A stretch of DNA of 64,000 nt from a virus (Duplodnaviria > Heunggongvirae > Uroviricota > Caudoviricetes): the IMG/VR virus record IMGVR_UViG_3300047393_000100; one strand, written 5' to 3'. Position numbers and translations under genes: made by a program. Each line of letters opens with the position of its first letter. Position 1 is the first letter of the stretch. The notes under the pieces were generated by a model. The model ran no database searches. It was not told where the DNA came from and saw only the letters and a list, made by a program, of their open reading frames with translations. Positions 7,159 to 64,000 of this stretch are shown in pieces.

Positions 7159-7872
7159 ATGCAACAAAAAAAGACGAATTCAGATCAGACACAGAGCATT
7201 AAAAAAATGTCAGTCAAAGAAGAGGATATTAAACACGTTAATTTAAAAAATAATCAACACGAATACGTCAATCAAATATTAAAAAACGATATAACATTTT
7301 GTTCTGGACCCGCTGGAACTTCAAAAACGTTTACAGCATGTTATACATCACTAAGGTTATTAGCTGAAAAAAAGGTTAAAAAGATAATTTTATGTAAACC
7401 TATCCAAGAATCTGGAGAAAAACTTGGATTCCTTCCAGGCGATATTGCAGATAAAATAGATCCATATATGCAATCATATATTTCTAACTTTAAAAAAATA
7501 GTTGGAAATGAATTAACTGAAAGTTTAATCCACCATGGATTAATAGAATTCAAACCTCTTGCGTTTATGAGAGGTGATACATTTGATGACGCATTTATGA
7601 TTCTTGACGAGGCACAGAATGCAACGTTTAAGCAACTTATGTTATTTACTACAAGAATGGGTAAAAGTTCAAAGGTACTTGTTACTGGAGATATTAGTCA
7701 ATATGATATTCCAAAGGCAAACGCAGGTTTAACTGGATTTATTGAATTAATGCAAGGTATTAATGGTGTTGGACATCATAAATTTTCAAATTCAGATATT
7801 GTTAGAGCTAAAATTCTACAAGAAGTAGTAGGACGATATGATAAATGGATGATCGATAATCCTAATAAATAA
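7159..7872 (+). CDS. phoH: PhoH family ATPase
   Basis: GPAGTSKT, LGFLPGD, AFMRG, ILDEAQN, TRMG and GDISQYD motifs. Confidence 0.95.
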   Translation: MQQKKTNSDQTQSIKKMSVKEEDIKHVNLKNNQHEYVNQILKNDITFCSGPAGTSKTFTACYTSLRLLAEKKVKKIILCKPIQESGEKLGFLPGDIADKIDPYMQSYISNFKKIVGNELTESLIHHGLIEFKPLAFMRGDTFDDAFMILDEAQNATFKQLMLFTTRMGKSSKVLVTGDISQYDIPKANAGLTGFIELMQGINGVGHHKFSNSDIVRAKILQEVVGRYDKWMIDNPNK

Positions 7873-12483: not shown

Positions 12484-12960
12484 ATGGCAAATATTAAATC
12501 ATTTGAAACCTTTGTTAACGAAATGGACAGAGCAGAGGAGATAGAAACTAAATTAAATAAGGTTGGAGAACCTGATGAAAAGGATGTAGAAGAAACCGAA
12601 GAAGAAGCTGAAGAAGTTCAAGAAGCCGAAGATGTTACTCCAATTGGAATTAAAGAACCGGATGCAAATAAGCAAAAACTTCCAGTATATGCAATGCTAG
12701 AAAAATGCTATGAAGAAGTTATTGATGAAGCTAAGGTATGGGAATCTGATGCACACGACGATCACACGATAGAAACATATATGGCTGAAAATTCTGCGTT
12801 AGTTGCAAAGATGGCAGTTAACTCGCTTACTGAAATGAAAGGTGATATGCAAACTGAAGCGTTTGAAGCATGCTTGAATAAAATGTCAGAAGCTTATACT
12901 AAAAAAATAAATGAGTGTAAAGAAACTAAAGAGGCAGTTGATGCTGAAGATGTAGAATAA
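12484..12960 (+). CDS. Acidic putative internal head protein
   Basis: MANIKSFETFVNE N-terminus, Glu-rich, late-type GATATATAA motif upstream. Confidence 0.65.
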   Translation: MANIKSFETFVNEMDRAEEIETKLNKVGEPDEKDVEETEEEAEEVQEAEDVTPIGIKEPDANKQKLPVYAMLEKCYEEVIDEAKVWESDAHDDHTIETYMAENSALVAKMAVNSLTEMKGDMQTEAFEACLNKMSEAYTKKINECKETKEAVDAEDVE

Positions 12961-25166: not shown

Positions 25167-25970
25167 ATGAGTAAACTAATGAAATACAACGAATTTATTA
25201 ATGAATCAAAACAAAATAATATTGTTAATATTATTTTAGATTCATTAGAACCGACAATTGTTGAAATGCTAGCTGCAACCGAAAAATGGTTTGTTGAAAC
25301 ATTTAAACAGGAATTTACCAAGTATGATAGAGAAAGTGCTAGGTTAAACTTAATATATGACATGGTTAAATCTATTGAGATATACACAATGCCATCAGAT
25401 TCATTAATTTCACTTAATGTTAGGAAAAGTGCCAAAGGAAATATTGAAATTTCTTCTCAAATTCAAAGAGATGGAATTACATATAATTTTAATACTGAAG
25501 CTATTTACGCAGGTGGACATAATATTCAAAGACTTCATTATCGATATATTGTTAAAACAACAATTCCTAAAACAGGGGTTAGTGAAATAACAAAAGAGTA
25601 TACTGAGAAAATTAAGAAAATGTCTAAGCTTGAAAAACTTAATAAAGAAATTAATAGCTATGAACAACGTATCAAAACTGCTGAAGAAAAGGTTGAAGTT
25701 AATTCTAAAGTAACGGATGCTGAAATATTAAAAATCTTAAAGTCTAAAGAAGATTGGCGTGAATCTCCTACATGGGAAGAAATAATAAAAAGAGATGCTG
25801 CTAAAAATTATAATAATGATGAGGCGCATTATTACAAAGAACAAGAAAGATATTTAAATTCTAGAATAGATCATTGGAAATATTTAAATGTAAATTCAAA
25901 TAAATCGTGGTTGATAGGTGCTACTAAAGAACTTAAAAAACTACAAGCAAAACGAGATTCTATGGTGTAG
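25167..25970 (+). CDS. Hypothetical protein with capsid-targeting-like N-terminus and coiled coil
   Basis: MKYNEFINES N-terminus; AGGHNIQRLHYRYIVK motif. Confidence 0.7.
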   Translation: MSKLMKYNEFINESKQNNIVNIILDSLEPTIVEMLAATEKWFVETFKQEFTKYDRESARLNLIYDMVKSIEIYTMPSDSLISLNVRKSAKGNIEISSQIQRDGITYNFNTEAIYAGGHNIQRLHYRYIVKTTIPKTGVSEITKEYTEKIKKMSKLEKLNKEINSYEQRIKTAEEKVEVNSKVTDAEILKILKSKEDWRESPTWEEIIKRDAAKNYNNDEAHYYKEQERYLNSRIDHWKYLNVNSNKSWLIGATKELKKLQAKRDSMV

Positions 25971-45427: not shown

Positions 45428-48238
45428 ATGGCAATTAATTTAAAACAAATTAGTGTTTCTGATAGTGATAATATTAAATTAGATAAAACTAATTATAATT
45501 TTGACCAATTAGTGGCAAATGGTGGAGGACCTCAAGGTAATGTTGGACCTAAGGGAGAAACTGGGCCACAGGGTGTTACTGGAGCAACTGGAGAAAAAGG
45601 AAATCAGGGATATCAGGGTACACAAGGTCCACAGGGATCTAATGATACTGCGTCTTGGAGGAGAATTCAAGGATCCGGCGCAAATCTAACAACAGATACC
45701 ATCCTACCTATTCATAATAATACTATGTTATATCCTCCTGTTGTTAGCGTAGGGTTTTTAGAAACAGATCCAGAATATAATACGGCGCAACCATTTGATG
45801 GAGCTAATTCTCCATATCAGTGGATAATTAATAGAAAAAATCATTTCAAATCAAATTTAAGATTAACCAATGCAGGTATATCTAATTATTTTGATTTTAT
45901 AATGAACTATGATTCTGTAACACTACAAAATAATTTAACAATAGAATCTAAAAACGGAGTATCTTCTACCATTACTTGGTATGCACAAAATCATATATTT
46001 AAAAGTAATGTTACTGGGGCAACATTATTAAATATATCAGATTCGTCAATAACATATAATACTGATACTATTTTTAATAGACCTGTTACTATTAATAGAA
46101 ACTTAATAATAGGAAATTCAAGTGCAGGTGCAAATAAAATAGCAGTTGCGGCAGATGACACTGGTAAAGTTACATTTAAAACTGCATTAGAAATAGGTGG
46201 AATAGTTCCAGTAGGTACTATAATTTCTATCTTGCCTTCTATCTTTACTGATTCTGCCAAATTTATTAATAGTCAAATTTATAATGCGGCCAATTCTCCT
46301 GAAAAAGATTTACCGATTCCTATTAAAGTAGGTGGAGGTATTGGAGATTATACCGGTTGGTATTTATGTAATGGAAAAACATGGACAAATGGAACTACCA
46401 ATTATGTATTACCTGACTTAAATTCATTTTCTTATTCCATTGCAGATAACACAACATCTACCTCATCAACGAGCCAAGGAGTTGCAAGCATTACAAATAG
46501 TGAAATAGCATTAATAGGTGGTGCTGATGCTAGTTTAACAGCAACCACATCATCTCCTGGAATTTATTCTATCAGTGGTACAGTGCAAACTACTAGTGTA
46601 TTATTAAATGCAAATGGTAGTGGTACATCGCTTACAATTAAAAAATTACCGCAAATTATATATTTAGGAGTTGCCGATTTATATTGGAAAGATGGAGGTG
46701 TTTTACCACAAGCAATAAATACATATACGTTTGATGATTTAAATAATACGGCGACCGGATGTGTAACTACAACTAAGACAGATACTCGTGCCGAAGGAGC
46801 CGTTTCTCCTGCGATTACATTTACTCAGACAATAACAGCGCCAAGTTCTTATTATTTCCAAACAATACCGACGGCTGCTTCATTTACTGAAGTAAATTCA
46901 GGATATACTGTAACTAATGTTGTTTCAGGAGGTGGAACATATCCTACATCTATAATTGTTACAGTGAGTGTATCAACTCAAGGTATTAATGGTACACAAC
47001 GAAGTATAACGTATAATACAACAAGTAATATTGCGACAATTCCAGCGTATACCATAACTTATAAATTTATAGATGAGAATACAAACAATGGAGTTCCGAC
47101 TGTTCAAATAACAAATACAGGTGTTCAAGGTTCTAATACTATACCATTAGGTAATGTATTAATTAGTGCAGCGTCACTTAGTCCAGGAATGCATTGGACT
47201 TCTGTTCCATCACTTACAATACCAAGTGGAAGTGGATTAAGTGCAACACCTTCATTATATGTGACAGATACGACAGATAAAACGATTATAGTAAATATGA
47301 GTGTTACATCTCAACCCGCAGATGGAGCATTTACTAATAATATAGTAGAGATCAAATACAATTCGTTAGCGCATAAGGCATATGATACAATATCGTTATC
47401 TCTAGTTAGAGCGAATTCGCCATCGTATGTATCAATCACAGTTCCTCCTGTTACTAATTCAATAACTAACTGGCATTATCAAAATGGATGGACCGGAGAT
47501 GTTGTAATTAATGCTAACACTGGATATACATATAGTAGCCCTAACGATGTTAACATGTATAGTAATGAGACATATCAACCTGGAGATACTTATTCAAATG
47601 GAACAGAATGGGCATCTTTTGTATATACGATTAATTCTAGAGGATGGACACCAAGTACTACAGTAGGAAAATCAATTACTATGAATATTACTATTAAAGG
47701 AAATGCAACTGCTGGTTCAACATATTATTATGGAATATCAGGAAACCCTGTATTGACATCAATATTTACGTTTGTTTCACATGTTGGTGATCCTGTTACT
47801 TCGGGTTCAGGTCCTATCATTTCAGCAGGGGCAAATGGTGGTAGTTATTCATACACTGGAACTAATATTGTCGATATGAATGGAACGACAAATCAGTATG
47901 TACACCTATTACTAGATGGATCATTACCATCAGGTATTACAGGTGGAACTAGATCTGGATCTCTTAATATAACTGCGGAACCAGGATATGGAGGTAGTGT
48001 AACAGTGATACCTACAGGTACACCTACTCCATTCACTATATCAGGTGAAATAATAAATGCGTCGCCAACTGCATCAGTAGGATCTTTCCTTCTAACGCCT
48101 GGAAGATATCGCATAAGTATGATTGTGGCAGTATCTAATACGTCTACTAGTCAATATGGACAATCATCGACTGCGATAGCATATTTATATAGGTCAACTA
48201 ATAATACAAATCCATGGACACTAATTGGAACTTGGTAA
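45428..48238 (+). CDS. Tail fibre protein (paralogue of 44029) with extended Thr/Ser-rich C-terminal region
   Basis: 13 G-X-Y triplets (GPQ...GSN); PVGTII...GWYLCNG...LPDL; about 500 extra aa of Ig-like beta repeats. Confidence 0.78.
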   Translation: MAINLKQISVSDSDNIKLDKTNYNFDQLVANGGGPQGNVGPKGETGPQGVTGATGEKGNQGYQGTQGPQGSNDTASWRRIQGSGANLTTDTILPIHNNTMLYPPVVSVGFLETDPEYNTAQPFDGANSPYQWIINRKNHFKSNLRLTNAGISNYFDFIMNYDSVTLQNNLTIESKNGVSSTITWYAQNHIFKSNVTGATLLNISDSSITYNTDTIFNRPVTINRNLIIGNSSAGANKIAVAADDTGKVTFKTALEIGGIVPVGTIISILPSIFTDSAKFINSQIYNAANSPEKDLPIPIKVGGGIGDYTGWYLCNGKTWTNGTTNYVLPDLNSFSYSIADNTTSTSSTSQGVASITNSEIALIGGADASLTATTSSPGIYSISGTVQTTSVLLNANGSGTSLTIKKLPQIIYLGVADLYWKDGGVLPQAINTYTFDDLNNTATGCVTTTKTDTRAEGAVSPAITFTQTITAPSSYYFQTIPTAASFTEVNSGYTVTNVVSGGGTYPTSIIVTVSVSTQGINGTQRSITYNTTSNIATIPAYTITYKFIDENTNNGVPTVQITNTGVQGSNTIPLGNVLISAASLSPGMHWTSVPSLTIPSGSGLSATPSLYVTDTTDKTIIVNMSVTSQPADGAFTNNIVEIKYNSLAHKAYDTISLSLVRANSPSYVSITVPPVTNSITNWHYQNGWTGDVVINANTGYTYSSPNDVNMYSNETYQPGDTYSNGTEWASFVYTINSRGWTPSTTVGKSITMNITIKGNATAGSTYYYGISGNPVLTSIFTFVSHVGDPVTSGSGPIISAGANGGSYSYTGTNIVDMNGTTNQYVHLLLDGSLPSGITGGTRSGSLNITAEPGYGGSVTVIPTGTPTPFTISGEIINASPTASVGSFLLTPGRYRISMIVAVSNTSTSQYGQSSTAIAYLYRSTNNTNPWTLIGTW

Positions 48239-51167: not shown

Positions 51168-51718
51168 TGATTTTAAATAGTAGAAATAATTTATTCAATT
51201 TTAAATTCCCTAGGACTTTTATTCCTAAGGAAGTTGCTGACAAATATCGAAAGTATTTGAATAGAATGCCAGGTAATTTAATTTCAGAACCAATTGATTT
51301 TATAAACTACTCAATCCAGGGTGTTAATTTACCAGGGATAACATTTGATCCAATTGAAGTATCTCCAAATGATGGAACAATAACATATCATAGAGGTTCT
51401 ATTCCGATACAAAATACAATTGATAGGCAGTTTAAAGTTACAATGCAACTTTTAGATGGTTATATTAATTATTGGATTATGCAAGATACTTTACTTTATT
51501 ATTATTCAAAAACAGTAAGGGAACCATGGTTAAATGATATTAAACTTCAAATAATGGATGCTGAAGGAATTCATATAATGAGTGCTGTATTTGAAAAACC
51601 AATTATGAACTCTATATCTGAACTTGATTTAAATATGAGTTCAAATATTGCAGAGTTTACTACATTTGATTTAAACTTCTATTATAACAAGTTTAATATT
51701 CAATTAGAAATAGATTAA
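51167..51718 (+). CDS. Tail completion/terminator or tube-fold protein (gp3/gp19-like)
   Basis: IQGVNLPGITF, F.VTMQLLDGYINYWIM and ELDLN....FTTFDLNFYY. Confidence 0.65.
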   Translation: MILNSRNNLFNFKFPRTFIPKEVADKYRKYLNRMPGNLISEPIDFINYSIQGVNLPGITFDPIEVSPNDGTITYHRGSIPIQNTIDRQFKVTMQLLDGYINYWIMQDTLLYYYSKTVREPWLNDIKLQIMDAEGIHIMSAVFEKPIMNSISELDLNMSSNIAEFTTFDLNFYYNKFNIQLEID

Positions 51719-51730
51719 GATATATAAAGT

Positions 51731-52036
51731 ATGAAAACATTTGATGATTATATAAACGAAGGAAAGGTTAATATAGATAACCTAACATTTACATTACAAA
51801 CTATTGTAGATAGAAAGGGATTAGCTATAACATTTATACCCGATTCAAAAACATTAGATACGATTCATGTTAATGGTAAAAACACTATTGTAGATATTAT
51901 TGAAAAGAAAATGGCTAAAAGTTCTCCACTAATATCAACATGTATGTGGTTTGAAGCTGGACATGACGCTGCAGGATTTACATTTAGAATTGATCCTACT
52001 GAATTAACTGACGAATTAACTAAAGCATTTAAATAA
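51731..52036 (+). CDS. Putative internal head protein
   Basis: MKTFDDYINE N-terminus; late motif upstream. Confidence 0.65.
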   Translation: MKTFDDYINEGKVNIDNLTFTLQTIVDRKGLAITFIPDSKTLDTIHVNGKNTIVDIIEKKMAKSSPLISTCMWFEAGHDAAGFTFRIDPTELTDELTKAFK

Positions 52037-52404
52037 TGAAAACATTTTTAGATTATATTAAAGAGGAAAATATATCAGATAAGGAATTAGCGATATTAAC
52101 TGAATCCTTGCAAACTGAGTGGACTGAAGAATTGGAAGCTAAAGTAGATGCTGCAATTGAAGAGTTCGCATCAACATATAAGAATACAGATGGTACTTAT
52201 AATATCCATGCATTTAATGAAGAACTTACAAATGAAGGAGTATTAGGAAGTATATTTGGTGGATTGGCAGGTTTTGCACTTGGTAAAACTATTGGTAAAA
52301 CTATAGCAAATATTCTTGGAATTACCTCCGGAATTATGTATGATATGTTAACTTCAAGATTAGTAGGAGCCGCTTTAGGTTCTTCACTTGGTAGTAAAGT
52401 ATAA
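52036..52404 (+). CDS. Putative internal protein with glycine-zipper membrane segments
   Basis: MKTFLDYIKEE; GSIFGGLAGFALG...GAALGSSLG. Confidence 0.65.
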   Translation: MKTFLDYIKEENISDKELAILTESLQTEWTEELEAKVDAAIEEFASTYKNTDGTYNIHAFNEELTNEGVLGSIFGGLAGFALGKTIGKTIANILGITSGIMYDMLTSRLVGAALGSSLGSKV

Positions 52405-52406
52405 TT

Positions 52407-53054
52407 ATGAATTTTGTAACAATTGACTTTTCACTTAATTCCCCTGGTATCTGCGTATTTAAAGATAATAAATACAATTTTATTGGTTATTTAAAACCAA
52501 AGACAGGAACTAAAAAGGAACAAATATTACAGGAGGAACTTAACCTTCTGACCGATACTCAAATCTCGCATCAACCTGACTGGACAAATAACGAATCCTA
52601 TTCAAAGAGCGAGATGATTAAAATCCAAAGACATACCCAGACTGCAAAGGACATTATTGATATGATTATAGAAATCACAGGTAATGATTCTCCCTTTGTT
52701 ATTGCGTTTGAAGGATCCTCTTATGGTTCTTCTGCCGGAACTAACAACATAATAGATATGGCCGCTGGTGCTGCAATTCTTAAAATGGAAATGATGTCTA
52801 GACTTGAAGTCTTAGAAATGATGACCATCGCACCTTCAACTATTAAAAAATTCATACATAAAGGAAATATGAATAAAAATGATATTTGGCCTTTTTTCTT
52901 AGATGATATTGATAGGGATAATATTCCATTAATTAAATATTGTAATAAAAATATTGGAAAAGATATTAAAAACGTTCCCAAGCCATTAGATGACCTAGTT
53001 GATGCATATTTTATGTTAAAATATGTAAAATCATTTTTTATTAAAGATATATAA
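52407..53054 (+). CDS. RuvC-like Holliday junction resolvase
   Basis: IDFSLNSPGI, AFEG.SYGS, APSTIKK..KGN..K and DDLVDAY acidic motifs. Confidence 0.82.
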   Translation: MNFVTIDFSLNSPGICVFKDNKYNFIGYLKPKTGTKKEQILQEELNLLTDTQISHQPDWTNNESYSKSEMIKIQRHTQTAKDIIDMIIEITGNDSPFVIAFEGSSYGSSAGTNNIIDMAAGAAILKMEMMSRLEVLEMMTIAPSTIKKFIHKGNMNKNDIWPFFLDDIDRDNIPLIKYCNKNIGKDIKNVPKPLDDLVDAYFMLKYVKSFFIKDI

Positions 53055-53056
53055 AT

Positions 53057-53143
53057 AAAATAATATAAGGACAATGGGTTCGAACCCACTTTAACAATTA
53101 GTCTGTTAAATTACTTATATTATTTTTTAAAAATAGACTAATT
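53057..53143 (+). ncRNA. Structured 5' leader RNA (three-way junction plus pseudoknot) of the homing endonuclease gene
   Basis: P1 53057-69/53114-26 (13 bp); P2 53075-88; P3 53090-96/53104-10; the P3 loop pairs with 53136-42, just upstream of ATG 53147. Confidence 0.6.
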
Positions 53144-53146
53144 ATT

Positions 53147-53836
53147 ATGTTATACCATTACGTATACCGTGTTACCTCTCTAGTTGAGAATAAACACTAT
53201 TATGGATTAAGAACTTCAAAAATTAAACCACAATTAGATTTAGGTATTAAATATTTTACATCTTCATGCGATACTGTATTTCGAAATGACTTCATACAAA
53301 ATACACATAATTATAAGTGTATAATTGTTAGGGTTTTTAATAATAGAATGGATGCTTCTCTGTTTGAAATATTTTTACATAATAAATTCAACGTTGGAGT
53401 GTCTACTAAATTTTATAATAATGCCAAATCAACCGAGACAAGTTGTGACATGACAGGTTTTAAACATACTGAAATTAGTAAACAAAAAATGTCAGATGCT
53501 AGGAAAGGTAAAGAGCCATGGAACAAAGGATTAATTAATCCTTATAATAAGATTACTTTAACTAAAATGTCAGATGCTAAAAAAGGTAAAGAGCCTATAA
53601 ATAAAAATAAAAAAGGAATGTGGAAACCTTCTACTGAAAACCTGATAAATTTATCAAATTCAATGAAAGGAAGAATACTAAGCGAAGAACATAAAAATAA
53701 TCTTAGCAAGCCAAAGAAATCAACTGAAAATTATTCATATCCAAAAGAAAGAGTTACTTGTCCGTTTTGTAACAAGTCCGGAGGAAAACCTTCAATGTCT
53801 AGATTCCATTTTGATAATTGTAAAAAGAGACTTTAG
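53147..53836 (+). mobile_element. Free-standing GIY-YIG homing endonuclease with NUMOD3 repeats and a C-terminal zinc-knuckle motif
   Basis: HYVYRVT...KHYYG.R, YFTSS, FYN; HTEISKQKMSDARKG / SEEHKNNLS repeats; CPFC...RFHFDNCK. Confidence 0.88.
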
Positions 53837-57073: not shown

Positions 57074-58582
57074 TTGATTTTAACATTAACGGAAGATAAT
57101 CAATTTTTAAGAATTGATGAATCAACTGAACTTGAGTTAGAGCAGATTAGAATTTCTTTAACAAAACGAATTGACTCTTGGAGATTTAATCCTTTAGTCA
57201 AAAGAGGTGTGTGGGATGGTTATGTAACATATATTAAAGATGATAAATGGATTCCGGCAGGTCTATGGCGATATGTCATGGGAGTATGTAAAGACTATCG
57301 TTTTGAATTAAAAATTAATGGAATTAAGAGATTAATAGATCCAGACATAAACGCTGAAACATTCGAAAAATGGGCATACGACCTATTTGAAGGTTCTAAG
57401 ATAACACCTAGGGACTATCAAGTAGATGCGGCTTATAATATATTAAAATTTAGAAAGTGTCTTGCAGAGCTTGCAACATCAGCAGGTAAGACCTTAATAA
57501 GTTTTCTTACAATATCATATATGTTAGAAAAGGGAACAGCATCTAAGATATTATTTATAGTACCTAACGTTTCATTGGTAGTACAGGCGCATGAAGATTT
57601 CCACGACTATAACTTTAAAAATAGAATTGACTTAAGAATCCAACAAATTTTTGCAGGACAAAAAATCAAATCTAATAAAAATATAGTGATAGGTACTTAC
57701 CAATCATTAATTAAAAAGGATAAAGAATACTTTGAACAATTTGACGCAGTAATAGTTGATGAAACTCATAAGGCAAAATCTGCAAGTATTAAGACAATTC
57801 TACAAAAATGTACTAACGCTAAATATCGATTCGGGCTTTCAGGTACAATCCCAAAGGATGGAACTTTAGATAAATTAACGTTAATGAGTCAGACAGGTCC
57901 TGTCATTGCAGAGGTTAAAGCAAGTTTTTTACAAAACGAAGGACACATTGCAAAATGTGCAGTTAAAGTAATCGAAATGGATTATGCAACTGACAAACAA
58001 AAAACAGCTTTGATGGAATTAGCACAAAATAAATACGAGAACAAAGATGTATTTGCATTGGAACAGAACTTCGTTATCAATAATGCAGCAAGACTTGATT
58101 TTATTTCAAATGTAATTGGTAGAGTACCAAAGAATAGTTTAGTGCTTTTTCATAGAATAGAACATGGACAAAGACTTTATGAAAAACTTAGACAAGAAAC
58201 GAATAAAAGAGTATTCTATGTAGATGGTGGAACTGCAACTGATATTAGAGAGGAATATAAAAAGAAAATGGAAGCCGGCGAAGAAATAGTTATTGTTGCA
58301 AGTTATGGAACGTTCTCAACTGGTATATCAATTAAGAAAATTCACAATATATTTTTTACAGAATCCTTTAAATCAGAAGTGATAATTAGACAGTCAATTG
58401 GACGTGGACTTAGACAACATGAATCAAAGGACAAGGTGTTAATCGTTGACTTTGTAGATAATATTAGAACACTAGAATGGGATAATTATCTGTATCGACA
58501 TGGTAAAGCAAGGCAGGCAATTTACAAACAAGAGAAATTCGACTACACTATAAAGAAAGTCAATTTTGAAGGAGATATATAA
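57074..58582 (+). CDS. uvsW: SF2 DNA helicase UvsW
   Basis: WDG, RDYQ, ATSAGKT, TYQSL, VDETH, GLSGT, SYGTFSTGISI and QSIGRGLR motifs. Confidence 0.95.
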   Translation: MILTLTEDNQFLRIDESTELELEQIRISLTKRIDSWRFNPLVKRGVWDGYVTYIKDDKWIPAGLWRYVMGVCKDYRFELKINGIKRLIDPDINAETFEKWAYDLFEGSKITPRDYQVDAAYNILKFRKCLAELATSAGKTLISFLTISYMLEKGTASKILFIVPNVSLVVQAHEDFHDYNFKNRIDLRIQQIFAGQKIKSNKNIVIGTYQSLIKKDKEYFEQFDAVIVDETHKAKSASIKTILQKCTNAKYRFGLSGTIPKDGTLDKLTLMSQTGPVIAEVKASFLQNEGHIAKCAVKVIEMDYATDKQKTALMELAQNKYENKDVFALEQNFVINNAARLDFISNVIGRVPKNSLVLFHRIEHGQRLYEKLRQETNKRVFYVDGGTATDIREEYKKKMEAGEEIVIVASYGTFSTGISIKKIHNIFFTESFKSEVIIRQSIGRGLRQHESKDKVLIVDFVDNIRTLEWDNYLYRHGKARQAIYKQEKFDYTIKKVNFEGDI

Positions 58583-58614
58583 ATATAATAACGTAATAAA
58601 AAAACAAATTAAAA

Positions 58615-60546
58615 ATGGCAGAAGTTAATAGAATCTCATCATTTAAAAGTTTTTCAGAGATTAAATCTCAAGAAAATGAAATGAAATTGAGAGAAGAAAA
58701 CAGTCTAAAGAAACAAGAGACACTATCTAAAATTGAAGAAATTTTAGATGAGATGGGATTAACAAATCTATCTGAAATCGATGAAGATTCCCAGTCAGCT
58801 TTCATATCTAAATTGTTAGGTAAAGAAACAAATGAGGGTAATGCATTTGTGTACGCTGCAGGTAAAGCTAAAGCAGATGGAAAAAAGGAATTTGAATTTA
58901 ATGGTAAAACTTATAAAGTAACTATTAAAGATACTGGCATCAAAGAAGATAATGAGATTATTGATGAAGCAATTAGTAGAAGTGAATATGATAGAATGGA
59001 TGGACTTCATAATATGAAAGCTATGAAATCTTTAATTGATTCTGCAAAAACAATCTTTGATGATTTATCTGAAGAAATGTTTGAATTTGATGAAATTTGC
59101 GATTTCATTGTTATGAAAATTAAGAAGAGCAAATTAGCAGGAATGTATGAATCTGTTAATGAGGCTAGGATTAATGCAACTAAAGCTTTACAAGAAATTG
59201 TTGATGGTAATACATCTGCAGCCGAAGGTTTAAAAATTTCAAAAGAATTAGCACAACATTATATTGATTGGATTAGAACTTCTCCATATGGAAAAAGAAA
59301 TGCAACCCTACCATTAAACATGTTAGTTAAGGCATCATTTAATTGGGGAATTGAACGACAATTAGATCCTAAATTAAAGACAGAATTAGATACATTAAAG
59401 GGTAGTATTAAAGAATCTATAATTAATGAAGCGGTTGCAAAGCAATTTGACAAAGACATGCAGACTTTAATTAAAGATATTAAATCAGGTTATGGTTGGA
59501 TTGATCCAGAATTCGTATCAGATACTTGGGAAAATTCAAGCGACTCTATTGATTTTGAATTAGTTAAAGGAGAAATCTATAAAAGATTAATCGCTGCTAA
59601 TTTATTAGCATATCCTAATCCAGATGATGAAGAAAAGAAAGGTGTACCTGTTAGAAAATTACAAGAATTAGGAATTAAAGAATCTGTAATTACTGAAGGA
59701 AAAGATGATTATATGGCTAAATTCGGTAGCGCAACTATAAACCTAAAGAAAGGATATAAACACCATACTGAAGATGAATTGAATGATTTATATGATAAAT
59801 TAGGAGATTTAGTTAAAACTCTTAATGTTAAAGATGTTACATTAGTATTTGAGGCAAATTCTGAAGAATCTGCAACAAATGAAGCAACTGTAGAAGTAGA
59901 TGCAGTAGATCCTAAAGATAAAAATCTTGCAAAATTATTAAAGAAGTATAAAGTTTCGCTAGAAGTAATTAATAAAAATGGGCCATCAGGATATCCTGAA
60001 GTTAAATTAACAGGAGATGTTAAAAGTCTTAAAGCTGTTTTAGCGGATGATGAATATGGATGGGATGATGCGGATCTTGCAGAATATATTGAAGAAGCTA
60101 TTGTTACTGAAGCTGAAATTAAATCTGATGATGAATTTAAAGAATATGCAATGACCGTTTTGAAAAAAGCATTTGGATCTGACTTTGAAGAAGCAAAGGC
60201 TGGAGATACAATTGATGGAATCCTTAAAAAATGTGATGGTGACTATGGTGCTGCAGTTGGAATGTTAACTAGTTCTCTAGGAGAATCTGCCACTAACGAA
60301 GCGTTTAACGCAAAATATTGGGAAGATTACCATGAAAAATCTACAAAAATAACTTCAGCATCTAAAGTTGCAAGAGCAGTAGAAGACGAAGTTGAAGAGT
60401 GGAACGATAACAATGAAGATGGTGAAGACAATGAAGTTACTAATGCTGGAGAAAAGAAAGTAATGAACTTAGCTCATGATTTTTTTAAAGCAACTGGATG
60501 GATATCATCAGATGTTATCCAGGCAATGATCGCACAAGAATCTTAA
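58615..60546 (+). CDS. Acidic modular internal head polyprotein with repeated putative prohead-protease sites
   Basis: Eight linkers ETNE/G, EIIDE/A, ESVNE/A, ESIINE/A, ESVITE/G, ESATNE/A, EAIVTE/A and ESATNE/A separate unrelated 45-90 aa modules. Confidence 0.65.
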   Translation: MAEVNRISSFKSFSEIKSQENEMKLREENSLKKQETLSKIEEILDEMGLTNLSEIDEDSQSAFISKLLGKETNEGNAFVYAAGKAKADGKKEFEFNGKTYKVTIKDTGIKEDNEIIDEAISRSEYDRMDGLHNMKAMKSLIDSAKTIFDDLSEEMFEFDEICDFIVMKIKKSKLAGMYESVNEARINATKALQEIVDGNTSAAEGLKISKELAQHYIDWIRTSPYGKRNATLPLNMLVKASFNWGIERQLDPKLKTELDTLKGSIKESIINEAVAKQFDKDMQTLIKDIKSGYGWIDPEFVSDTWENSSDSIDFELVKGEIYKRLIAANLLAYPNPDDEEKKGVPVRKLQELGIKESVITEGKDDYMAKFGSATINLKKGYKHHTEDELNDLYDKLGDLVKTLNVKDVTLVFEANSEESATNEATVEVDAVDPKDKNLAKLLKKYKVSLEVINKNGPSGYPEVKLTGDVKSLKAVLADDEYGWDDADLAEYIEEAIVTEAEIKSDDEFKEYAMTVLKKAFGSDFEEAKAGDTIDGILKKCDGDYGAAVGMLTSSLGESATNEAFNAKYWEDYHEKSTKITSASKVARAVEDEVEEWNDNNEDGEDNEVTNAGEKKVMNLAHDFFKATGWISSDVIQAMIAQES

Positions 60547-60621: not shown

Positions 60622-61908
60622 ATGAAAACAAAAATCCTTAATTTCAATCAGTTTATAACTGAAAAATATGAAGTAAAATTAAATGAACAACTTTTACTTG
60701 AAGGTGGAGCAGCTGGACATATGTCCCATCCATTTGACGAGAGAGATCTTACATTCGGGGATTTTAAGAAAATAATTGAAGCGGGACTTTCAGGTAATTT
60801 AACATTTGAGGAAGATCCTACTGAAAAAACAGATGGACAAAATGTATTTGCAACAGTACAAGATGGACAGGTTAAATTTGCCAGAAATAAAACTGAACTT
60901 AAGAATCCAATGGATCTTAATACGTTTAAACAAAAATTTGCTGGACATCCAAGTAAAATGGTCGAAGAGACCTTTCAATATGCAGCAGAAGATTTAGCAA
61001 ATGCACTTATTAAATTATCAACTAAAGATTTAGAGGCATTTAATAATGGCAAGAACTTCATGAATATGGAGCTTATTTATTCTAAGAATCCAAATGTTAT
61101 TTACTATGACAGAGACATTATACAGTTCCATGGGATTAAAATAACTGACGGTGATGGTAATATTATCGGAGATGATAATAAATATGCTAGATCTATTGCA
61201 AAGGCCTTAGAAGATGTCAAGGCACACATAGGAAAGGTATTTACTATTATTCCTCCACAGATTATTAAGATCGGTAAAGACGTTGATTTTGATACAAATA
61301 AATCAAAATTTATTAAAAAGGTAGAAGACCTAAAGAATCGTTATAAATTAACAGATGCCGATGAGGTTTCTAGATATCATGAAATGTGGTGGAGAGAATT
61401 AATTGACAAAAATTTCCCAAATTTACCACAAGACCATAAAGAAGGTTTATTATTAAGATGGGCGTATGATGATAAGAAAACTCTTAATCTAAGAAGTTTA
61501 GATAAAGAACTTGGAAAAGATCAAGCCGAACTTATTAAGAAATTTGATAAAGAAGATGTTAAAAAGAAATATAAAGAAAATATTAGACCATTTGAAGATT
61601 TATTCTTGGAATTAGGTAGTATTATCTTGAAGAATGCAAGTAACTTTGTTGCTGCAAATCCGGCAGCAGAAATGCAAAGATTACATACGCAGATTAGAAC
61701 AGAAGCAGATAAAATTAAAGTAGGTGGAGATATTGCACAAATTGATAAAGTAATGTCAGAACTTGAAAGGCTTGATAGAATCGGAGGAATCGATTCAATT
61801 ATTCCAACAGAAGGTATTGTATTTGTATATAAAGGAAAAACAATGAAACTTACAGGAACATTTGCTGCCATTAATCAGTTAATGGGTATTATAAAATATG
61901 GTAGATAA
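60622..61908 (+). CDS. RNA-ligase-fold nucleotidyltransferase (DUF6267-like) with capsid-targeting-like N-terminus
   Basis: LLLE/GGAAGHMSHPF; motif I TEKTDG, motif IV EGIVF, motif V KLTG.F. Confidence 0.75.
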   Translation: MKTKILNFNQFITEKYEVKLNEQLLLEGGAAGHMSHPFDERDLTFGDFKKIIEAGLSGNLTFEEDPTEKTDGQNVFATVQDGQVKFARNKTELKNPMDLNTFKQKFAGHPSKMVEETFQYAAEDLANALIKLSTKDLEAFNNGKNFMNMELIYSKNPNVIYYDRDIIQFHGIKITDGDGNIIGDDNKYARSIAKALEDVKAHIGKVFTIIPPQIIKIGKDVDFDTNKSKFIKKVEDLKNRYKLTDADEVSRYHEMWWRELIDKNFPNLPQDHKEGLLLRWAYDDKKTLNLRSLDKELGKDQAELIKKFDKEDVKKKYKENIRPFEDLFLELGSIILKNASNFVAANPAAEMQRLHTQIRTEADKIKVGGDIAQIDKVMSELERLDRIGGIDSIIPTEGIVFVYKGKTMKLTGTFAAINQLMGIIKYGR

Positions 61909-61928
61909 ATAAAATAAATATAATAGAC

Positions 61929-62246
61929 ATGAAATATACACAAGCATTCGAATCATTTATTAATGAGGCAAAAGATTCGCCATCATTTGACACATCCACT
62001 GGACTTATATATTATTTCGATATTCCATTTACAGTAGAAGATATTGAAGAAATATTATCTTCAAGCAAAGCTATATTAAATGCAAAATTCACACCAAATT
62101 CGCAGTTTGAAATTCAACCAATGATTTTTATTAAGGATAAAGTAAATGGAGGAGAACACACCTTTAGTGTTGCGCAAATTGGAATATTAGGTTCTTTTTA
62201 TAATAAGAACAAAAATAGTGTTGCATCTAGATCAGATTTCAATTAA
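61929..62246 (+). CDS. Putative internal head protein
   Basis: MKYTQAFESFINE/A N-terminus. Confidence 0.65.
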   Translation: MKYTQAFESFINEAKDSPSFDTSTGLIYYFDIPFTVEDIEEILSSSKAILNAKFTPNSQFEIQPMIFIKDKVNGGEHTFSVAQIGILGSFYNKNKNSVASRSDFN

Positions 62247-62260
62247 TATAATTTAATAAA

Positions 62261-64000
62261 ATGGCATTACAAAAATTAAGAGAGTATTTTAACGAAACCA
62301 ATAGAGAAAATTTTATTGAAATGTTAAAGGGTAGAGTGTTAGTGACTGAAAAGATTGCAGCACCATCTTTTCTTTTTAAAAGAAATACAGATGGATTTGA
62401 GTTTTATAAATCTTCAACATCAGATAAATTAAATTTTGTCGATAGGACTGTTATATCATTATATGAAATGGCAATTAATCATTTACAAAGTTTACCGAGC
62501 GATGTAAAATCTCAATTTCCACTAGATTGGAAATTTGGATTTGAATATTTACCAGAAACTAAAGCTTCTAATATAGATTATGCCACAACTCCTACAAATA
62601 GCTTAATTCTTACACATATACAACAATTAAGTGATGGAGGAAAGGTTAGAAAAACTATTAATGATCCATTAATCTTAAATAAATGGGCAAAATTACTTGA
62701 TGTACAATCACCAAATGTTATTTTTGATGCGTACCTTTCTCAACAACAAAGAGAGGAACTCTTAGATTTGTTAGCAATGAGCGATAGAGAATATTCAGAT
62801 TCATTTGATTATGCAATAGAAACTGAAGACAAAACAAGTTTTACTTCGAAGATATTTAAGATGTTTAATCCTAATATCTATTCAACTTCATTAAATCCAG
62901 ATCTTGAAAGTGAGATCGATGGATTAGTTATAAACTTCATAGAAGGAAAAACAATGAAGTCATTTAAACTTGAAGATTTTTTAAGAGCATCTGCTGATAA
63001 AAGAGATTTAAGAGCTTCTAGTCACACTTACCAAATTGCAGTAACAGATTTCTTAGAGTATATAGTACAACAAGATTTAAAAGATATTAATTTAGAAGAT
63101 GAACATGCAGACTATAGATATTTGGAATTGATGTCTGTCTTGTTTAATGGATATATTGATAAAAATTCTTCAAAATATATTGGTGTTAATTTTGAAAGTG
63201 CTGAATTTTCAGAAGCACAATCATTTAGATTAAATACTAAATATATTAAAAACGAAAAAACATTAAAATTTGTAAATAATGAAGTACTTGCCGAATTATT
63301 TAAAATGATTTTAAGTTCTTTTAGAAAGAAAAGAACTAAAGAATCAGACCTAATTGACAAGGACACAATGTCAAGAATGAATGAAATCATAGATGCTATC
63401 AACGAAAAGATATTTGTAGAAAATACAGATGAAAACGCAATTTATGATTATACCAATTTTATGTTACATAATAAGATTAAATCTTCAGTAAATTTAAATG
63501 AAGCTCTTACTGTAAAACACATGGAACAAGGTAAACAACCTGTAAACATGTTTGTTGGAAGATTTCAACCATTTACGCTAGGACATGCAAAGGTATTAGA
63601 AATAATGAATAAGGAAAATGGATTTCCAGTAGTTGTATTTTTAGTTAAATCTAAGGTTAAAAAAGGCGAGGAGTTTAGTAAACCATACGATGAAAAAACA
63701 CAGGTTGATATGTTCAACCAGGTTAAAAAACAATATCCTTTCTTAAAGGAAATATATGTTGTTCCAAACGCTGCAATTGATACATTATATAATGAAATGA
63801 GACCAAAATACGAACCAGTATTATGGGGAACAGGAAGTGATAGAATGAAAGGATATGGTTATATGGTTAATAATGATTCATATAGAGACCAGTTAAATGC
63901 AAGAGCAGATTTTGGATTATTTGAAATTCCAAGAACTGACGATAATATCTCAGCAACTAAGGTTAGAAATGCAATGTTAGATGGAAATGAAAAAGATTTC
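62261..64000 (+). CDS. Ligase-like domain fused to a cytidylyltransferase-like (HxGH-superfamily) nucleotidyltransferase; runs off the window (not in the ORF track)
   Basis: Open from ATG 62261 to the window end. N-domain VTEKI..., EIDGLV, FKL; C-domain FVGRFQPFTLGH, GSDR and ISATKVR. Confidence 0.85.
   Translation, partial: MALQKLREYFNETNRENFIEMLKGRVLVTEKIAAPSFLFKRNTDGFEFYKSSTSDKLNFVDRTVISLYEMAINHLQSLPSDVKSQFPLDWKFGFEYLPETKASNIDYATTPTNSLILTHIQQLSDGGKVRKTINDPLILNKWAKLLDVQSPNVIFDAYLSQQQREELLDLLAMSDREYSDSFDYAIETEDKTSFTSKIFKMFNPNIYSTSLNPDLESEIDGLVINFIEGKTMKSFKLEDFLRASADKRDLRASSHTYQIAVTDFLEYIVQQDLKDINLEDEHADYRYLELMSVLFNGYIDKNSSKYIGVNFESAEFSEAQSFRLNTKYIKNEKTLKFVNNEVLAELFKMILSSFRKKRTKESDLIDKDTMSRMNEIIDAINEKIFVENTDENAIYDYTNFMLHNKIKSSVNLNEALTVKHMEQGKQPVNMFVGRFQPFTLGHAKVLEIMNKENGFPVVVFLVKSKVKKGEEFSKPYDEKTQVDMFNQVKKQYPFLKEIYVVPNAAIDTLYNEMRPKYEPVLWGTGSDRMKGYGYMVNNDSYRDQLNARADFGLFEIPRTDDNISATKVRNAMLDGNEKDF

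What the first reader, a model, noticed from the sequence alone, without database searches (positions are those of the whole stretch)
58615..60546. Nine-module cargo polyprotein punctuated by a repeated protease-site linker
Seen: the 643-aa protein consists of unrelated 45-90 aa modules separated by eight similar linkers, E-S-[VIA]-[IT]?-[NT]-E followed by A or G (ETNE/G, EIIDE/A, ESVNE/A, ESIINE/A, ESVITE/G, ESATNE/A, EAIVTE/A, ESATNE/A). It starts with a capsid-targeting-like SSFKSFSE and ends in QES. Five linkers share DNA microhomology GAATCT...GA(A/G)G (59149, 59413, 59680, 59866, 60283). Known: the T4 prohead protease gp21 cleaves core and internal proteins after Glu. Inference: one targeting signal loads the precursor into the prohead, where it is cut into about eight small proteins for ejection. 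The linkers could also act as recombination joints for module swapping.
Basis: partly seen in the sequence, partly recalled or inferred. Interest (0 to 1): 0.82.

Follow-up and report, generated by a model that had tools for sequence, protein, structure and literature searches.

The report
Shuffled phage head-cargo polyprotein
One gene of an uncultured T4-like phage strings nine unrelated mini-proteins together with short peptides that match the cutting rule of the T4-type head protease, so it is probably loaded into the capsid and cut into separate small proteins, but neither cutting nor packaging has been measured.

Summary
ORF 58615-60546 (643 aa) has eight E..[N/T/D]-E|[A/G] linkers. The strict form occurs 6 times against 0.05 in shuffles. 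AlphaFold2 gives nine confident, dissimilar mini-domains, and every confidence trough falls on a linker.

More than 400 metagenomic homologues carry the same linker consensus but 71 different module orders among 120 representatives. Close relatives whose flanking genes are 89-96% identical have lost, gained or re-ordered modules.

Three results tie the linkers to T4-type processing:
- In single-module genes, the same modules sit behind N-terminal leaders that match the T4 capsid targeting sequence in register (aromatic P7 and P4, I/V P3, Glu P1). The junction falls at the same residue as the linker cut.
- Linkers keep P3, P2 and P1 but lack the aromatic pair, so they look like processing-only sites.
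- Syntenic relatives encode a T4-type prohead protease, and their capsid protein starts with a matching candidate site.

Cleavage, packaging, ejection and module function are all untested. I found no published description. This scan reached the same reading on other genomes. I class it as a new variant of the T4 internal-protein system.

The parts
58615..60546 (+). Polyprotein gene, 643 aa (P0001)
   Evidence: 408+ homologues of 472-1116 aa
58615..58836 (+). Module 1, the N-terminal handle (aa 1-74): conserved F-x-x-F pair followed by long helices. Proposed to be the single targeting element.
   Evidence: N-terminal in 142 of 143 copies and in all 79 representative clusters out of 1.84 billion proteins; logo; helices 13-46 and 57-67
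58825..58839 (+). Linker 1, ETNE|G (weaker)
   Evidence: pLDDT trough at 70-75
58837..58968 (+). Module 2 (aa 75-118): helix plus beta hairpin, then a disordered tail
58954..58971 (+). Linker 2, EIIDE|A (atypical, Asp at P2)
   Evidence: lies in the disordered stretch 104-138
58969..59163 (+). Module 3 (aa 119-183), helical
59149..59166 (+). Linker 3, ESVNE|A
   Evidence: trough at 173-185
59164..59430 (+). Module 4 (aa 184-272): helical, the only basic module (pI 9.0)
   Evidence: 120 of 129 copies elsewhere are preceded by a cut motif, 10 of them behind an N-terminal leader
59413..59433 (+). Linker 4, ESIINE|A
   Evidence: trough at 267-270
59431..59697 (+). Module 5 (aa 273-361): helices plus a hairpin
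   Evidence: stand-alone form with a leader, P0234
59680..59700 (+). Linker 5, ESVITE|G
   Evidence: trough at 357-364
59698..59883 (+). Module 6 (aa 362-423), beta-beta-alpha-beta
59866..59886 (+). Linker 6, ESATNE|A
   Evidence: trough at 415-425
59884..60111 (+). Module 7 (aa 424-499), alpha/beta; weak match to phrog_5922 (unknown function)
60094..60114 (+). Linker 7, EAIVTE|A followed by E-I. Nearly the same as the T4 gp23 maturation site L-T-E|A-E-I.
   Evidence: trough at 493-497
60112..60300 (+). Module 8 (aa 500-562), three-helix bundle, the most widespread module
   Evidence: Glu at P1 in 59 of 59 distinct upstream contexts
60283..60303 (+). Linker 8, ESATNE|A
   Evidence: trough at 558-562
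60301..60543 (+). Module 9 (aa 563-643): helical, usually the C-terminal module. It ends in ..QES, which is the start of a linker when the module is internal.
   Evidence: Glu at P1 in 34 of 34 distinct upstream contexts, 18 copies behind N-terminal leaders
60622..64000 (+). Three downstream genes (60622, 61929, 62261) that each start with a T4-CTS-like leader; candidate co-packaged cargo
   Evidence: ORF 61929 is 82% identical to the second module of a leader + module 9 + linker + module gene in relative G002

Best explanation
P0001 is a capsid-cargo polyprotein of a T4-like phage.

Proposed mechanism:
1. The conserved N-terminal handle (module 1, with an F-x-x-F pair) takes the whole chain into the scaffolding core of the prohead.
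2. There the T4-type prohead protease cuts after the Glu of each linker ([V/I/L/T]-[N/T]-E|[A/G]).
3. This releases about seven to nine separate proteins of 5-10 kDa, the size of T4 IPI* and IPII*.
4. These stay with the DNA and are most likely delivered into the next host.

The linkers are truncated capsid targeting sequences. They keep the processing half (P3, P1 and a lineage-specific Asn or Thr at P2) and have lost the aromatic targeting half (P7, P4). Because every cassette ends in the same peptide, cassettes can be added, lost or re-ordered without breaking the system. This has produced a hypervariable arsenal.

Shown here: the motif and its enrichment; the beads-on-a-string fold; the leader/linker equivalence; the mosaicism; and the protease in relatives.

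Inferred: cleavage, packaging, retention, ejection, and any anti-host function.
For: Motif and fold
- The strict linker occurs 6 times against 0.05 expected, and the same consensus is found throughout the homologue family.
- AF2 gave pTM 0.30, with modules at pLDDT 80-96 and different secondary structure. All eight linkers lie in segments below pLDDT 50.

Conservation independent of the motif search
- Anchoring on conserved module starts, P1 is Glu in 34/34 (module 9) and 59/59 (module 8) distinct upstream contexts. P2 is Asn or Thr in 31/34 and 54/59.

Leader/linker equivalence
- P0216 is a leader followed by module 9. P0234 is a leader followed by module 5.
- G002_194790 is leader + module 9 + linker + the module that forms window ORF 61929. 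All are joined at the same residue as in P0001.
- The leaders align with the T4 CTS (sequence from PMC8442874) at P7, P4, P3 and P1. In T4, residues 4 and 7 target the protein and residues 8 and 10 direct processing (PMC9026906).
- CTS-like leaders occur in 7 of 63 window ORFs against 0.43 expected, and in 27 of 312 ORFs of the complete relative G002, including an array at 193-200 kb.

Protease and capsid protein in relatives
- Syntenic relatives (gene identities 37-79%, colinear apart from cargo-type genes) encode Peptidase_S77.
- Their gp23-type capsid protein starts M-A-x-L-I-N-E|A-E-I.
- The T4 gp23 site is L-T-E65|A-E-I. The gp21 rule is L/I-x-E.

Mosaicism
- There are 71 architectures among 120 representatives.
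- Close relatives with flanks 89-96% identical differ in module content and in the order of modules 7 and 8.
- Module 1 is always N-terminal.
Against: - There is no direct evidence of cleavage, virion association or ejection.
- The window holds no head genes, and its whole genome was not available. The protease is therefore shown only in relatives.
- The polyprotein's own N-terminus is not a canonical CTS: the Glu is not conserved and the register is shifted.
- Eight of nine modules are acidic (pI 4.3-5.3), whereas the T4 internal proteins are basic.
- The gene lies next to replication and recombination genes. The only T4-late-promoter-like TATAAATA upstream (58578) is not statistically meaningful: 19 matches in the window against 23 expected.
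- No module has a recognisable function or fold relative.
- The capsid protein of the relatives has a second candidate site (I-I-E|A at residue 19), so the site actually used is unknown.
Confidence: 0.66

Rival explanations
1. It is a prohead core or scaffold-type filler. The chain is loaded and cut by the prohead protease as proposed, but the pieces are expelled from the capsid or merely occupy space, as with T4 gp22, gp67 and gp68. They would not be delivered effectors.
For: T4 core proteins are cut into multiple fragments by gp21, and most fragments leave the head (PMC9026906). The modules are acidic, as scaffold fragments often are. No effector-like domain was found.
Against: The modules are confidently folded mini-domains with different folds, not coiled-coil scaffold. 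The gene is about 35 kb from the head gene cluster in the syntenic complete genome, which already has a protease-scaffold fusion. Extreme module turnover between near-identical flanks fits an arms-race cargo better than a structural role. The module sizes equal those of the retained T4 IPI* and IPII* (about 8-10 kDa).
Confidence: 0.15
2. It is an uncut multi-domain protein. The repeated peptide would be only a conserved flexible linker, or a scar of cassette recombination, and the protein would act as one chain, for example as a hub of small binding domains.
For: Cleavage is unmeasured. The linkers are disordered in the model, as any inter-domain linker would be. The gene sits among replication and recombination genes.
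Against: A passive linker would not need an invariant Glu followed by Ala, Gly or Ser. It would not be interchangeable at the same residue with a T4-CTS-like N-terminal leader. It would not recur at the N-terminus of the capsid protein or in the protease-scaffold protein. The motif is nearly confined to these protein classes: 9 of 312 ORFs in G002.
Confidence: 0.1
3. It is a cytoplasmic polyprotein cut by another Glu-specific protease, phage or host, to give equimolar small proteins during infection, without packaging.
For: The polyprotein strategy is common in other viruses. The canonical CTS is missing at its own N-terminus.
Against: No second protease candidate was seen near the gene. The motif matches the T4-type prohead protease rule and the CTS register. 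The only established activity of gp21-type enzymes is inside proheads (PMC9026906).
Confidence: 0.05

Closest known systems
Phage T4 internal proteins IPI, IPII, IPIII (and Alt): capsid targeting sequence plus gp21 processing
   Same: Small proteins of 8-20 kDa are targeted to the prohead core by a roughly 10-residue N-terminal leader, which the prohead protease removes after L/I-x-Glu. They are sequence-diverse between related phages and are thought to counter host defences (PMC9026906, PMC3012670). Leaders in this phage group match the T4 CTS at P7, P4, P3 and P1.
   Different: In T4 each cargo is its own gene with its own CTS and is cut once. Here up to 12 cargo units share one chain and one N-terminal handle. 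They are separated by internal linkers that keep only the processing half of the CTS. The modules are mostly acidic rather than basic. There is no sequence homology to the T4 IPs.
Ejection and inner-body proteins of giant phages (SPN3US gp245 substrates, phiKZ-like phages)
   Same: Many head-internal proteins are processed by a T4-related prohead protease after Glu, at a short motif, and are ejected into the host (PMC10052503, PMC5694885).
   Different: In SPN3US, all identified cleavages other than the protease's own remove N-terminal propeptides, giving one mature product per precursor. There is no string of independent mature modules and no cassette shuffling at the sites.
Polyvalent proteins of phages and conjugative elements (Iyer et al. 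2017, PMC5512222)
   Same: Several unrelated conflict domains sit in one polypeptide. They are predicted to be packaged and delivered with the DNA, show extensive mosaicism, and are sometimes processed proteolytically.
   Different: Polyvalent proteins are built from large recognisable enzymatic domains and, where processed, use their own peptidase domain. Here the units are 44-89 aa mini-domains with no Pfam match. They are separated by sites for the capsid maturation protease.
Viral polyproteins (picornavirus or retrovirus type)
   Same: One translation product holds independent folded units, separated by a repeated recognition site for a virus-encoded protease that acts during particle maturation.
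   Different: Those encode the essential structural and replicative proteins in a fixed order. This one appears to be an accessory, hypervariable cargo set in a dsDNA tailed phage.

Membership tests
T4-type capsid-targeted internal protein system (CTS + gp21) | The phage encodes a T4-type prohead protease (Peptidase_S77, PF03420) | tested here: inconclusive
   Present above the cut-off in 3 of 3 related virus records, including one that is syntenic with the window.
T4-type capsid-targeted internal protein system (CTS + gp21) | Junctions obey the gp21 rule: hydrophobic P3, any P2, Glu P1, small P1' | tested here: met
   All eight linkers. P1 Glu is invariant in motif-independent logos. The rule is taken from PMC9026906. 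The T4 gp23 site L-T-E|A-E-I was recovered.
T4-type capsid-targeted internal protein system (CTS + gp21) | N-terminal leader of about 10 residues with aromatic P7 and P4, I/L P3 and Glu P1, removed on maturation | tested here: not met
   P0001 has a conserved F-x-x-F at residues 10-13, but the following Glu is not conserved across the family and the register is one residue short. Canonical leaders do occur on 7 other window ORFs and on stand-alone copies of its modules.
T4-type capsid-targeted internal protein system (CTS + gp21) | Sequence homology to T4 IPI, IPII or IPIII | tested here: not met
   tblastn against 50,697 phage records gave no match; no Pfam family was found.
T4-type capsid-targeted internal protein system (CTS + gp21) | Processed product physically present in the virion and ejected | not testable with these tools
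   This needs virion proteomics of a cultured or purified member.
Prohead scaffold/core proteins (gp22, gp67, gp68 type) | Encoded in the head gene cluster and built of coiled coil or low-complexity sequence | tested here: not met
   The syntenic gene in G002 lies about 35 kb from the protease and capsid genes. The model shows folded mini-domains of different types.
Polyvalent proteins (Iyer et al. 2017) | Contains recognised conflict or enzymatic domains and/or its own processing peptidase domain | tested here: not met
   No Pfam match for the whole protein or for any module, even at E up to 1. Fold searches gave only generic helical matches with Z no higher than 6.3.
Protease-processed viral polyprotein (functional class) | Independent folded units separated by a repeated, conserved protease recognition site | tested here: met
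Protease-processed viral polyprotein (functional class) | Demonstrated cleavage into separate products | not testable with these tools

The most novel reading that the evidence does not exclude
This phage lineage has turned the T4 capsid targeting system into a combinatorial cassette platform. A targeting-only handle and processing-only linkers let any small ORF be captured, duplicated or re-ordered as capsid cargo. The same cassettes move between single-leader genes, two-module genes and polyproteins of up to 12 modules. The released acidic mini-proteins would be pre-made anti-defence or host-takeover factors, injected with the DNA.
Probability: 0.4. Interest if true: 0.85.

Novelty: new variant of a known kind. 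Interest (0 to 1): 0.74.

Why it matters
If this is true, it shows a natural way for a tailed phage to load many different small proteins into its head from one gene, and to reshuffle that set quickly. It extends the one-gene, one-leader T4 internal-protein paradigm.

It defines dozens of uncharacterised mini-protein families as candidate injected factors, possibly anti-defence proteins, in abundant uncultured aquatic phages. It also separates the targeting and processing halves of the capsid targeting sequence in a way that can be tested directly.

The design (one handle with cleavable linkers) is also of practical interest for protein delivery by engineered T4-type capsids, which currently fuse one CTS to each cargo (PMC8442874).

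Tried and rejected
Searches that found nothing useful
- Function of the modules: Pfam on the whole protein and on each module; PHROGs, which gave only unknown-function families; the ESM Atlas on module 9 and on modules 4-5; Foldseek against PDB and BFVD; and VIA-align against 48,161 chains. The only results were generic small helical bundles (Z no higher than 6.3) and one 79-aa uncharacterised phage protein.
- Cultured relatives: tblastn of the protein against 50,697 phage records gave no match. A baseplate protein finds only uncultured huge phages and Lak phages, at 29-41% identity.
- Literature: searches on CTS, internal proteins, polyprotein, polyvalent proteins and ejection proteins found no description of such a polyprotein.

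Steps that could not be completed
- Own head genes: no whole genome is held. The metagenome scan did not return the window's own contig, and its loci cannot be used as handles.

Ideas rejected
- Late-promoter support: TATAAATA lies 30 nt upstream of the ATG, but the pattern is not enriched in the window (19 matches against 23 expected).
- Modules as repeats of one domain: there is no inter-module similarity beyond the linker tails, and the secondary structures differ.
- Strong DNA repeats at the linkers: only 76-92% identity over 21-25 nt, with exact runs of about 12 nt at most, which codon bias explains.
Full report
**1. The observation**

ORF 58615-60546 (+) is open and encodes 643 aa (P0001).
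- The strict pattern E-[SA]-x(1-3)-[NT]-E-[AG] occurs six times. In 5000 shuffles of the protein the mean was 0.05 and the maximum 2.
- Among all + strand ORFs of the window, the strict pattern occurs elsewhere only once, at the N-terminus of ORF 61929-62246.
- GAATCT sits at the five stated coordinates.
- GAA and TCT are the preferred codons, however. The linker DNA copies are only 76-92% identical over 21-25 nt, with exact runs of about 12 nt. The DNA microhomology is real but is mostly the shadow of the peptide.

**2. Anatomy**

AlphaFold2, run with a 59-row alignment, gave mean pLDDT 74 and pTM 0.30.
- Segments below pLDDT 50 fall at 70-75, 104-138, 173-185, 267-270, 357-364, 415-425, 493-497 and 558-562. 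That is one on each of the eight linkers.
- The stretches between them reach pLDDT 80-96 and have different secondary structure: helical bundles, helices plus a hairpin, beta-beta-alpha-beta, and alpha/beta.
- The nine modules show no pairwise similarity except their shared linker tails.
- The protein is therefore beads on a string, not a repeat protein.
- The predicted pieces are 4.9-10.1 kDa. Eight of the nine are acidic (pI 4.3-5.3), and module 4 is basic.

**3. The family**

A word-indexed search found at least 408 homologues of 472-1116 aa and 269 shorter ones. All are metagenomic; none is in 50,697 deposited phage records.
- Every long homologue carries the same linker, with consensus E-S-V-V-[N/T]-E-[A/G].
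- I split 120 representatives at the linkers and clustered the pieces. This gave about 50 module families and 71 different architectures of 3-12 modules.
- Module 1 is first in 118 of the 120. In an exhaustive HMMER search of 1.84 billion representatives it matched 79 clusters, always at residues 1 to about 74.
- Copies of modules 4, 8 and 9 in other proteins are preceded by a cut-like motif within five residues of the extrapolated module start in 93-94% of cases.
- I also made logos anchored on conserved module starts, which are independent of any linker pattern. P1 is Glu in 34/34 and 59/59 distinct contexts. P2 is Asn or Thr in 31/34 and 54/59. P1' is almost always Ala, Gly or Ser.

**4. 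Recent shuffling in a conserved context**

The gene always lies between the UvsW helicase gene and a 428-aa gene. Relatives with near-identical flanks still have very different polyproteins:

| Source | UvsW identity | 428-aa gene identity | Module order |
|---|---|---|---|
| Window | - | - | 1-2-3-4-5-6-7-8-9 |
| L001 | 95% | 89% | 1-2-3-4-5-X-8-7-9 |
| L044 | 96% | 93% | 1-2-2'-4-8 (309 aa) |
| L047 | 92% | 73% | 1-2-X-3-4-X-X-8 |

- In L001, module 6 is absent, a foreign module is inserted, and modules 7 and 8 are in the opposite order.
- All junctions in these relatives again read x-x-Glu followed by a small residue.
- Genes that end after module 8 or module 9 stop inside what is a linker when the module is internal, for example ..QES-stop against ..QEAIGESIVNE|A.

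**5. Link to the T4 capsid targeting system**

The T4 CTS is a ten-residue leader (PMC8442874). Residues 4 and 7 mainly determine targeting, and residues 8 and 10 determine processing. The protease gp21 cuts after L/I-x-Glu (PMC9026906). Counted back from the cut, these are Tyr at P7, Phe at P4, Ile at P3 and Glu at P1.
- Stand-alone genes that hold one or two of P0001's modules start with leaders of the form M-K-H-I-x-x-[F/Y]-E-x-F-[I/V]-N-E. These have the same P7, P4, P3 and P1 register as the T4 CTS.
- The module begins at exactly the residue where it begins after a linker in P0001. Examples are P0216 (module 9), P0234 (module 5) and P0130-P0137 (modules 4 and 9).
- In the complete 256-kb relative G002, one gene is leader + module 9 + linker + a further module. 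That further module is 82% identical to the window's separate 105-aa gene 61929, which has its own leader.
- The linkers keep Glu at P6, the hydrophobic P3, Asn or Thr at P2 and Glu at P1. They lack the aromatic P7 and P4.
- My reading is that leaders are targeting-plus-processing signals and linkers are processing-only signals.
- CTS-like leaders are strongly enriched. In the window, 7 of 63 ORFs have one, against 0.43 expected from the internal frequency of the same pattern. The pattern was chosen after looking, but P is about 4e-7. In G002, 27 of 312 ORFs have one, with a dense array at 193-200 kb.
- Three of the window's seven are the genes immediately downstream of the polyprotein.

**6. 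The protease**

The window holds tail, baseplate and replication genes but no head genes, and no whole genome is held.
- Three related virus records encode Peptidase_S77 above the Pfam cut-off, in a frame of 604-647 aa that continues into a scaffold-like tail. They also encode a gp23-type capsid protein.
- G002 is colinear with the window for the conserved genes compared, at 38-79% identity; small cargo-type genes match elsewhere in G002.
- The capsid protein starts M-A-x-L-I-N-E|A-E-I in both relatives examined.
- Aligning it to solved T4 gp23 chains recovers the T4 maturation site L-T-E65|A66-E-I. Linker 7 of P0001 reads I-V-T-E|A-E-I.
- The relatives' protease-scaffold protein and the protein downstream of the capsid gene also contain V-N-E|A, V-N-E|G and E-S-V-I-D-E|A.
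- In G002 the strict linker is confined to 9 of 312 ORFs. Most of these are the polyprotein, the cargo-array genes and head-cluster proteins.

**7. The N-terminus**

The following Glu is replaced by Ser, Gln or Ala in many members, and the spacing to it is one residue short of the CTS register. I take it as a candidate targeting element that is not cut off at that point. Module 1 as a whole would then be released at linker 1, where that linker exists. This step is inference.

**8. Mechanism and its status**

Because gp21-type proteases are known to act inside assembled proheads (PMC9026906), linkers that are genuine substrates imply that the chain enters the prohead.
- The best explanation is a capsid-cargo polyprotein cut into seven to nine small proteins. 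I put this at about 0.66.
- The rivals are a cut-and-expelled core filler (0.15), an uncut multi-domain protein (0.10), and cytoplasmic processing by another protease (0.05).
- The points against the best explanation are the absence of any direct evidence, the acidic charge of the modules, the non-canonical N-terminus, the position among replication genes, and the fact that the protease is seen only in relatives.

**9. Comparison with what is known**

- The system works like T4 internal proteins but is not homologous to them. It differs in format: many cargo units per chain, one handle, and internal processing-only sites.
- In the giant phage SPN3US, all identified cleavages other than the protease's own remove N-terminal propeptides (PMC10052503).
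- Polyvalent proteins (PMC5512222) are built of large known domains and use their own peptidases.
- Five literature searches found no description of a CTS-linked cargo polyprotein.
- Earlier notes of this scan reached the same reading on other genomes. I re-derived each step on this DNA.
- The lineage has no cultured close relative. A baseplate protein matches only uncultured huge phages and Lak phages, at 29-41% identity.

**10. Verdict**

It is a new variant of a known kind. The decisive tests are virion mass spectrometry and a protease assay.

Noticed in passing
window 12484-12960, 25167-25970, 51731-52036, 52036-52404, 60622-61908, 61929-62246, 62261-64000: Seven ORFs start with a leader that matches the T4 capsid targeting sequence in register (aromatic P7 and P4, I/V/L P3, Glu P1). 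They are candidate packaged proteins. Two are large: the 428-aa protein, and the 580+ aa protein that has a cytidylyltransferase-like domain.
   Followed up: partly
G002 (locus L008 record) 193196-200277, minus strand: A dense array of about 15 small genes, each starting M-K-H-[I/V]-K-L-F-E-[E/Q]-F-[I/V]-N-E. Some have one internal linker. It looks like a greatly expanded version of the T4 internal-protein locus.
   Followed up: partly
L024 1-1905 (-) and G002 51569-53383 (-): In these relatives the T4-type prohead protease domain lies in one frame of 604-647 aa with a long acidic, repeat-rich, scaffold-like C-terminal part. T4 has separate genes 21 and 22.
   Followed up: no
L028 1426-2898 (-), L029 1435-2967 (-): The gp23-type capsid protein of the relatives has two candidate maturation sites very near the N-terminus (after residue 7 and after residue 19). 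T4 gp23 instead loses a 65-residue propeptide.
   Followed up: partly
window 53147-53836: A homing-endonuclease-like ORF (phrog_314, E 1e-18) lies between the RuvC-like resolvase gene and the gp32 gene.
   Followed up: no
window 58578-58585: TATAAATA, the T4 late-promoter consensus, overlaps the uvsW stop codon 30 nt upstream of the polyprotein ATG. Another copy sits 19 nt upstream of the tail-fibre gene at 45428. The pattern as a whole is not enriched in the window.
   Followed up: yes
P0138-P0163, P0170-P0171 (short homologues): Many genes that end after module 8 stop at ..SSLG, and genes that end after module 9 stop at ..QES. These positions are inside the linker that follows when the module is internal, so gene ends also map to linkers.
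   Followed up: partly
window 7159-7872: A PhoH-like gene (phrog_170, E 1e-68), typical of aquatic phages. The window is 30% G+C.
   Followed up: no
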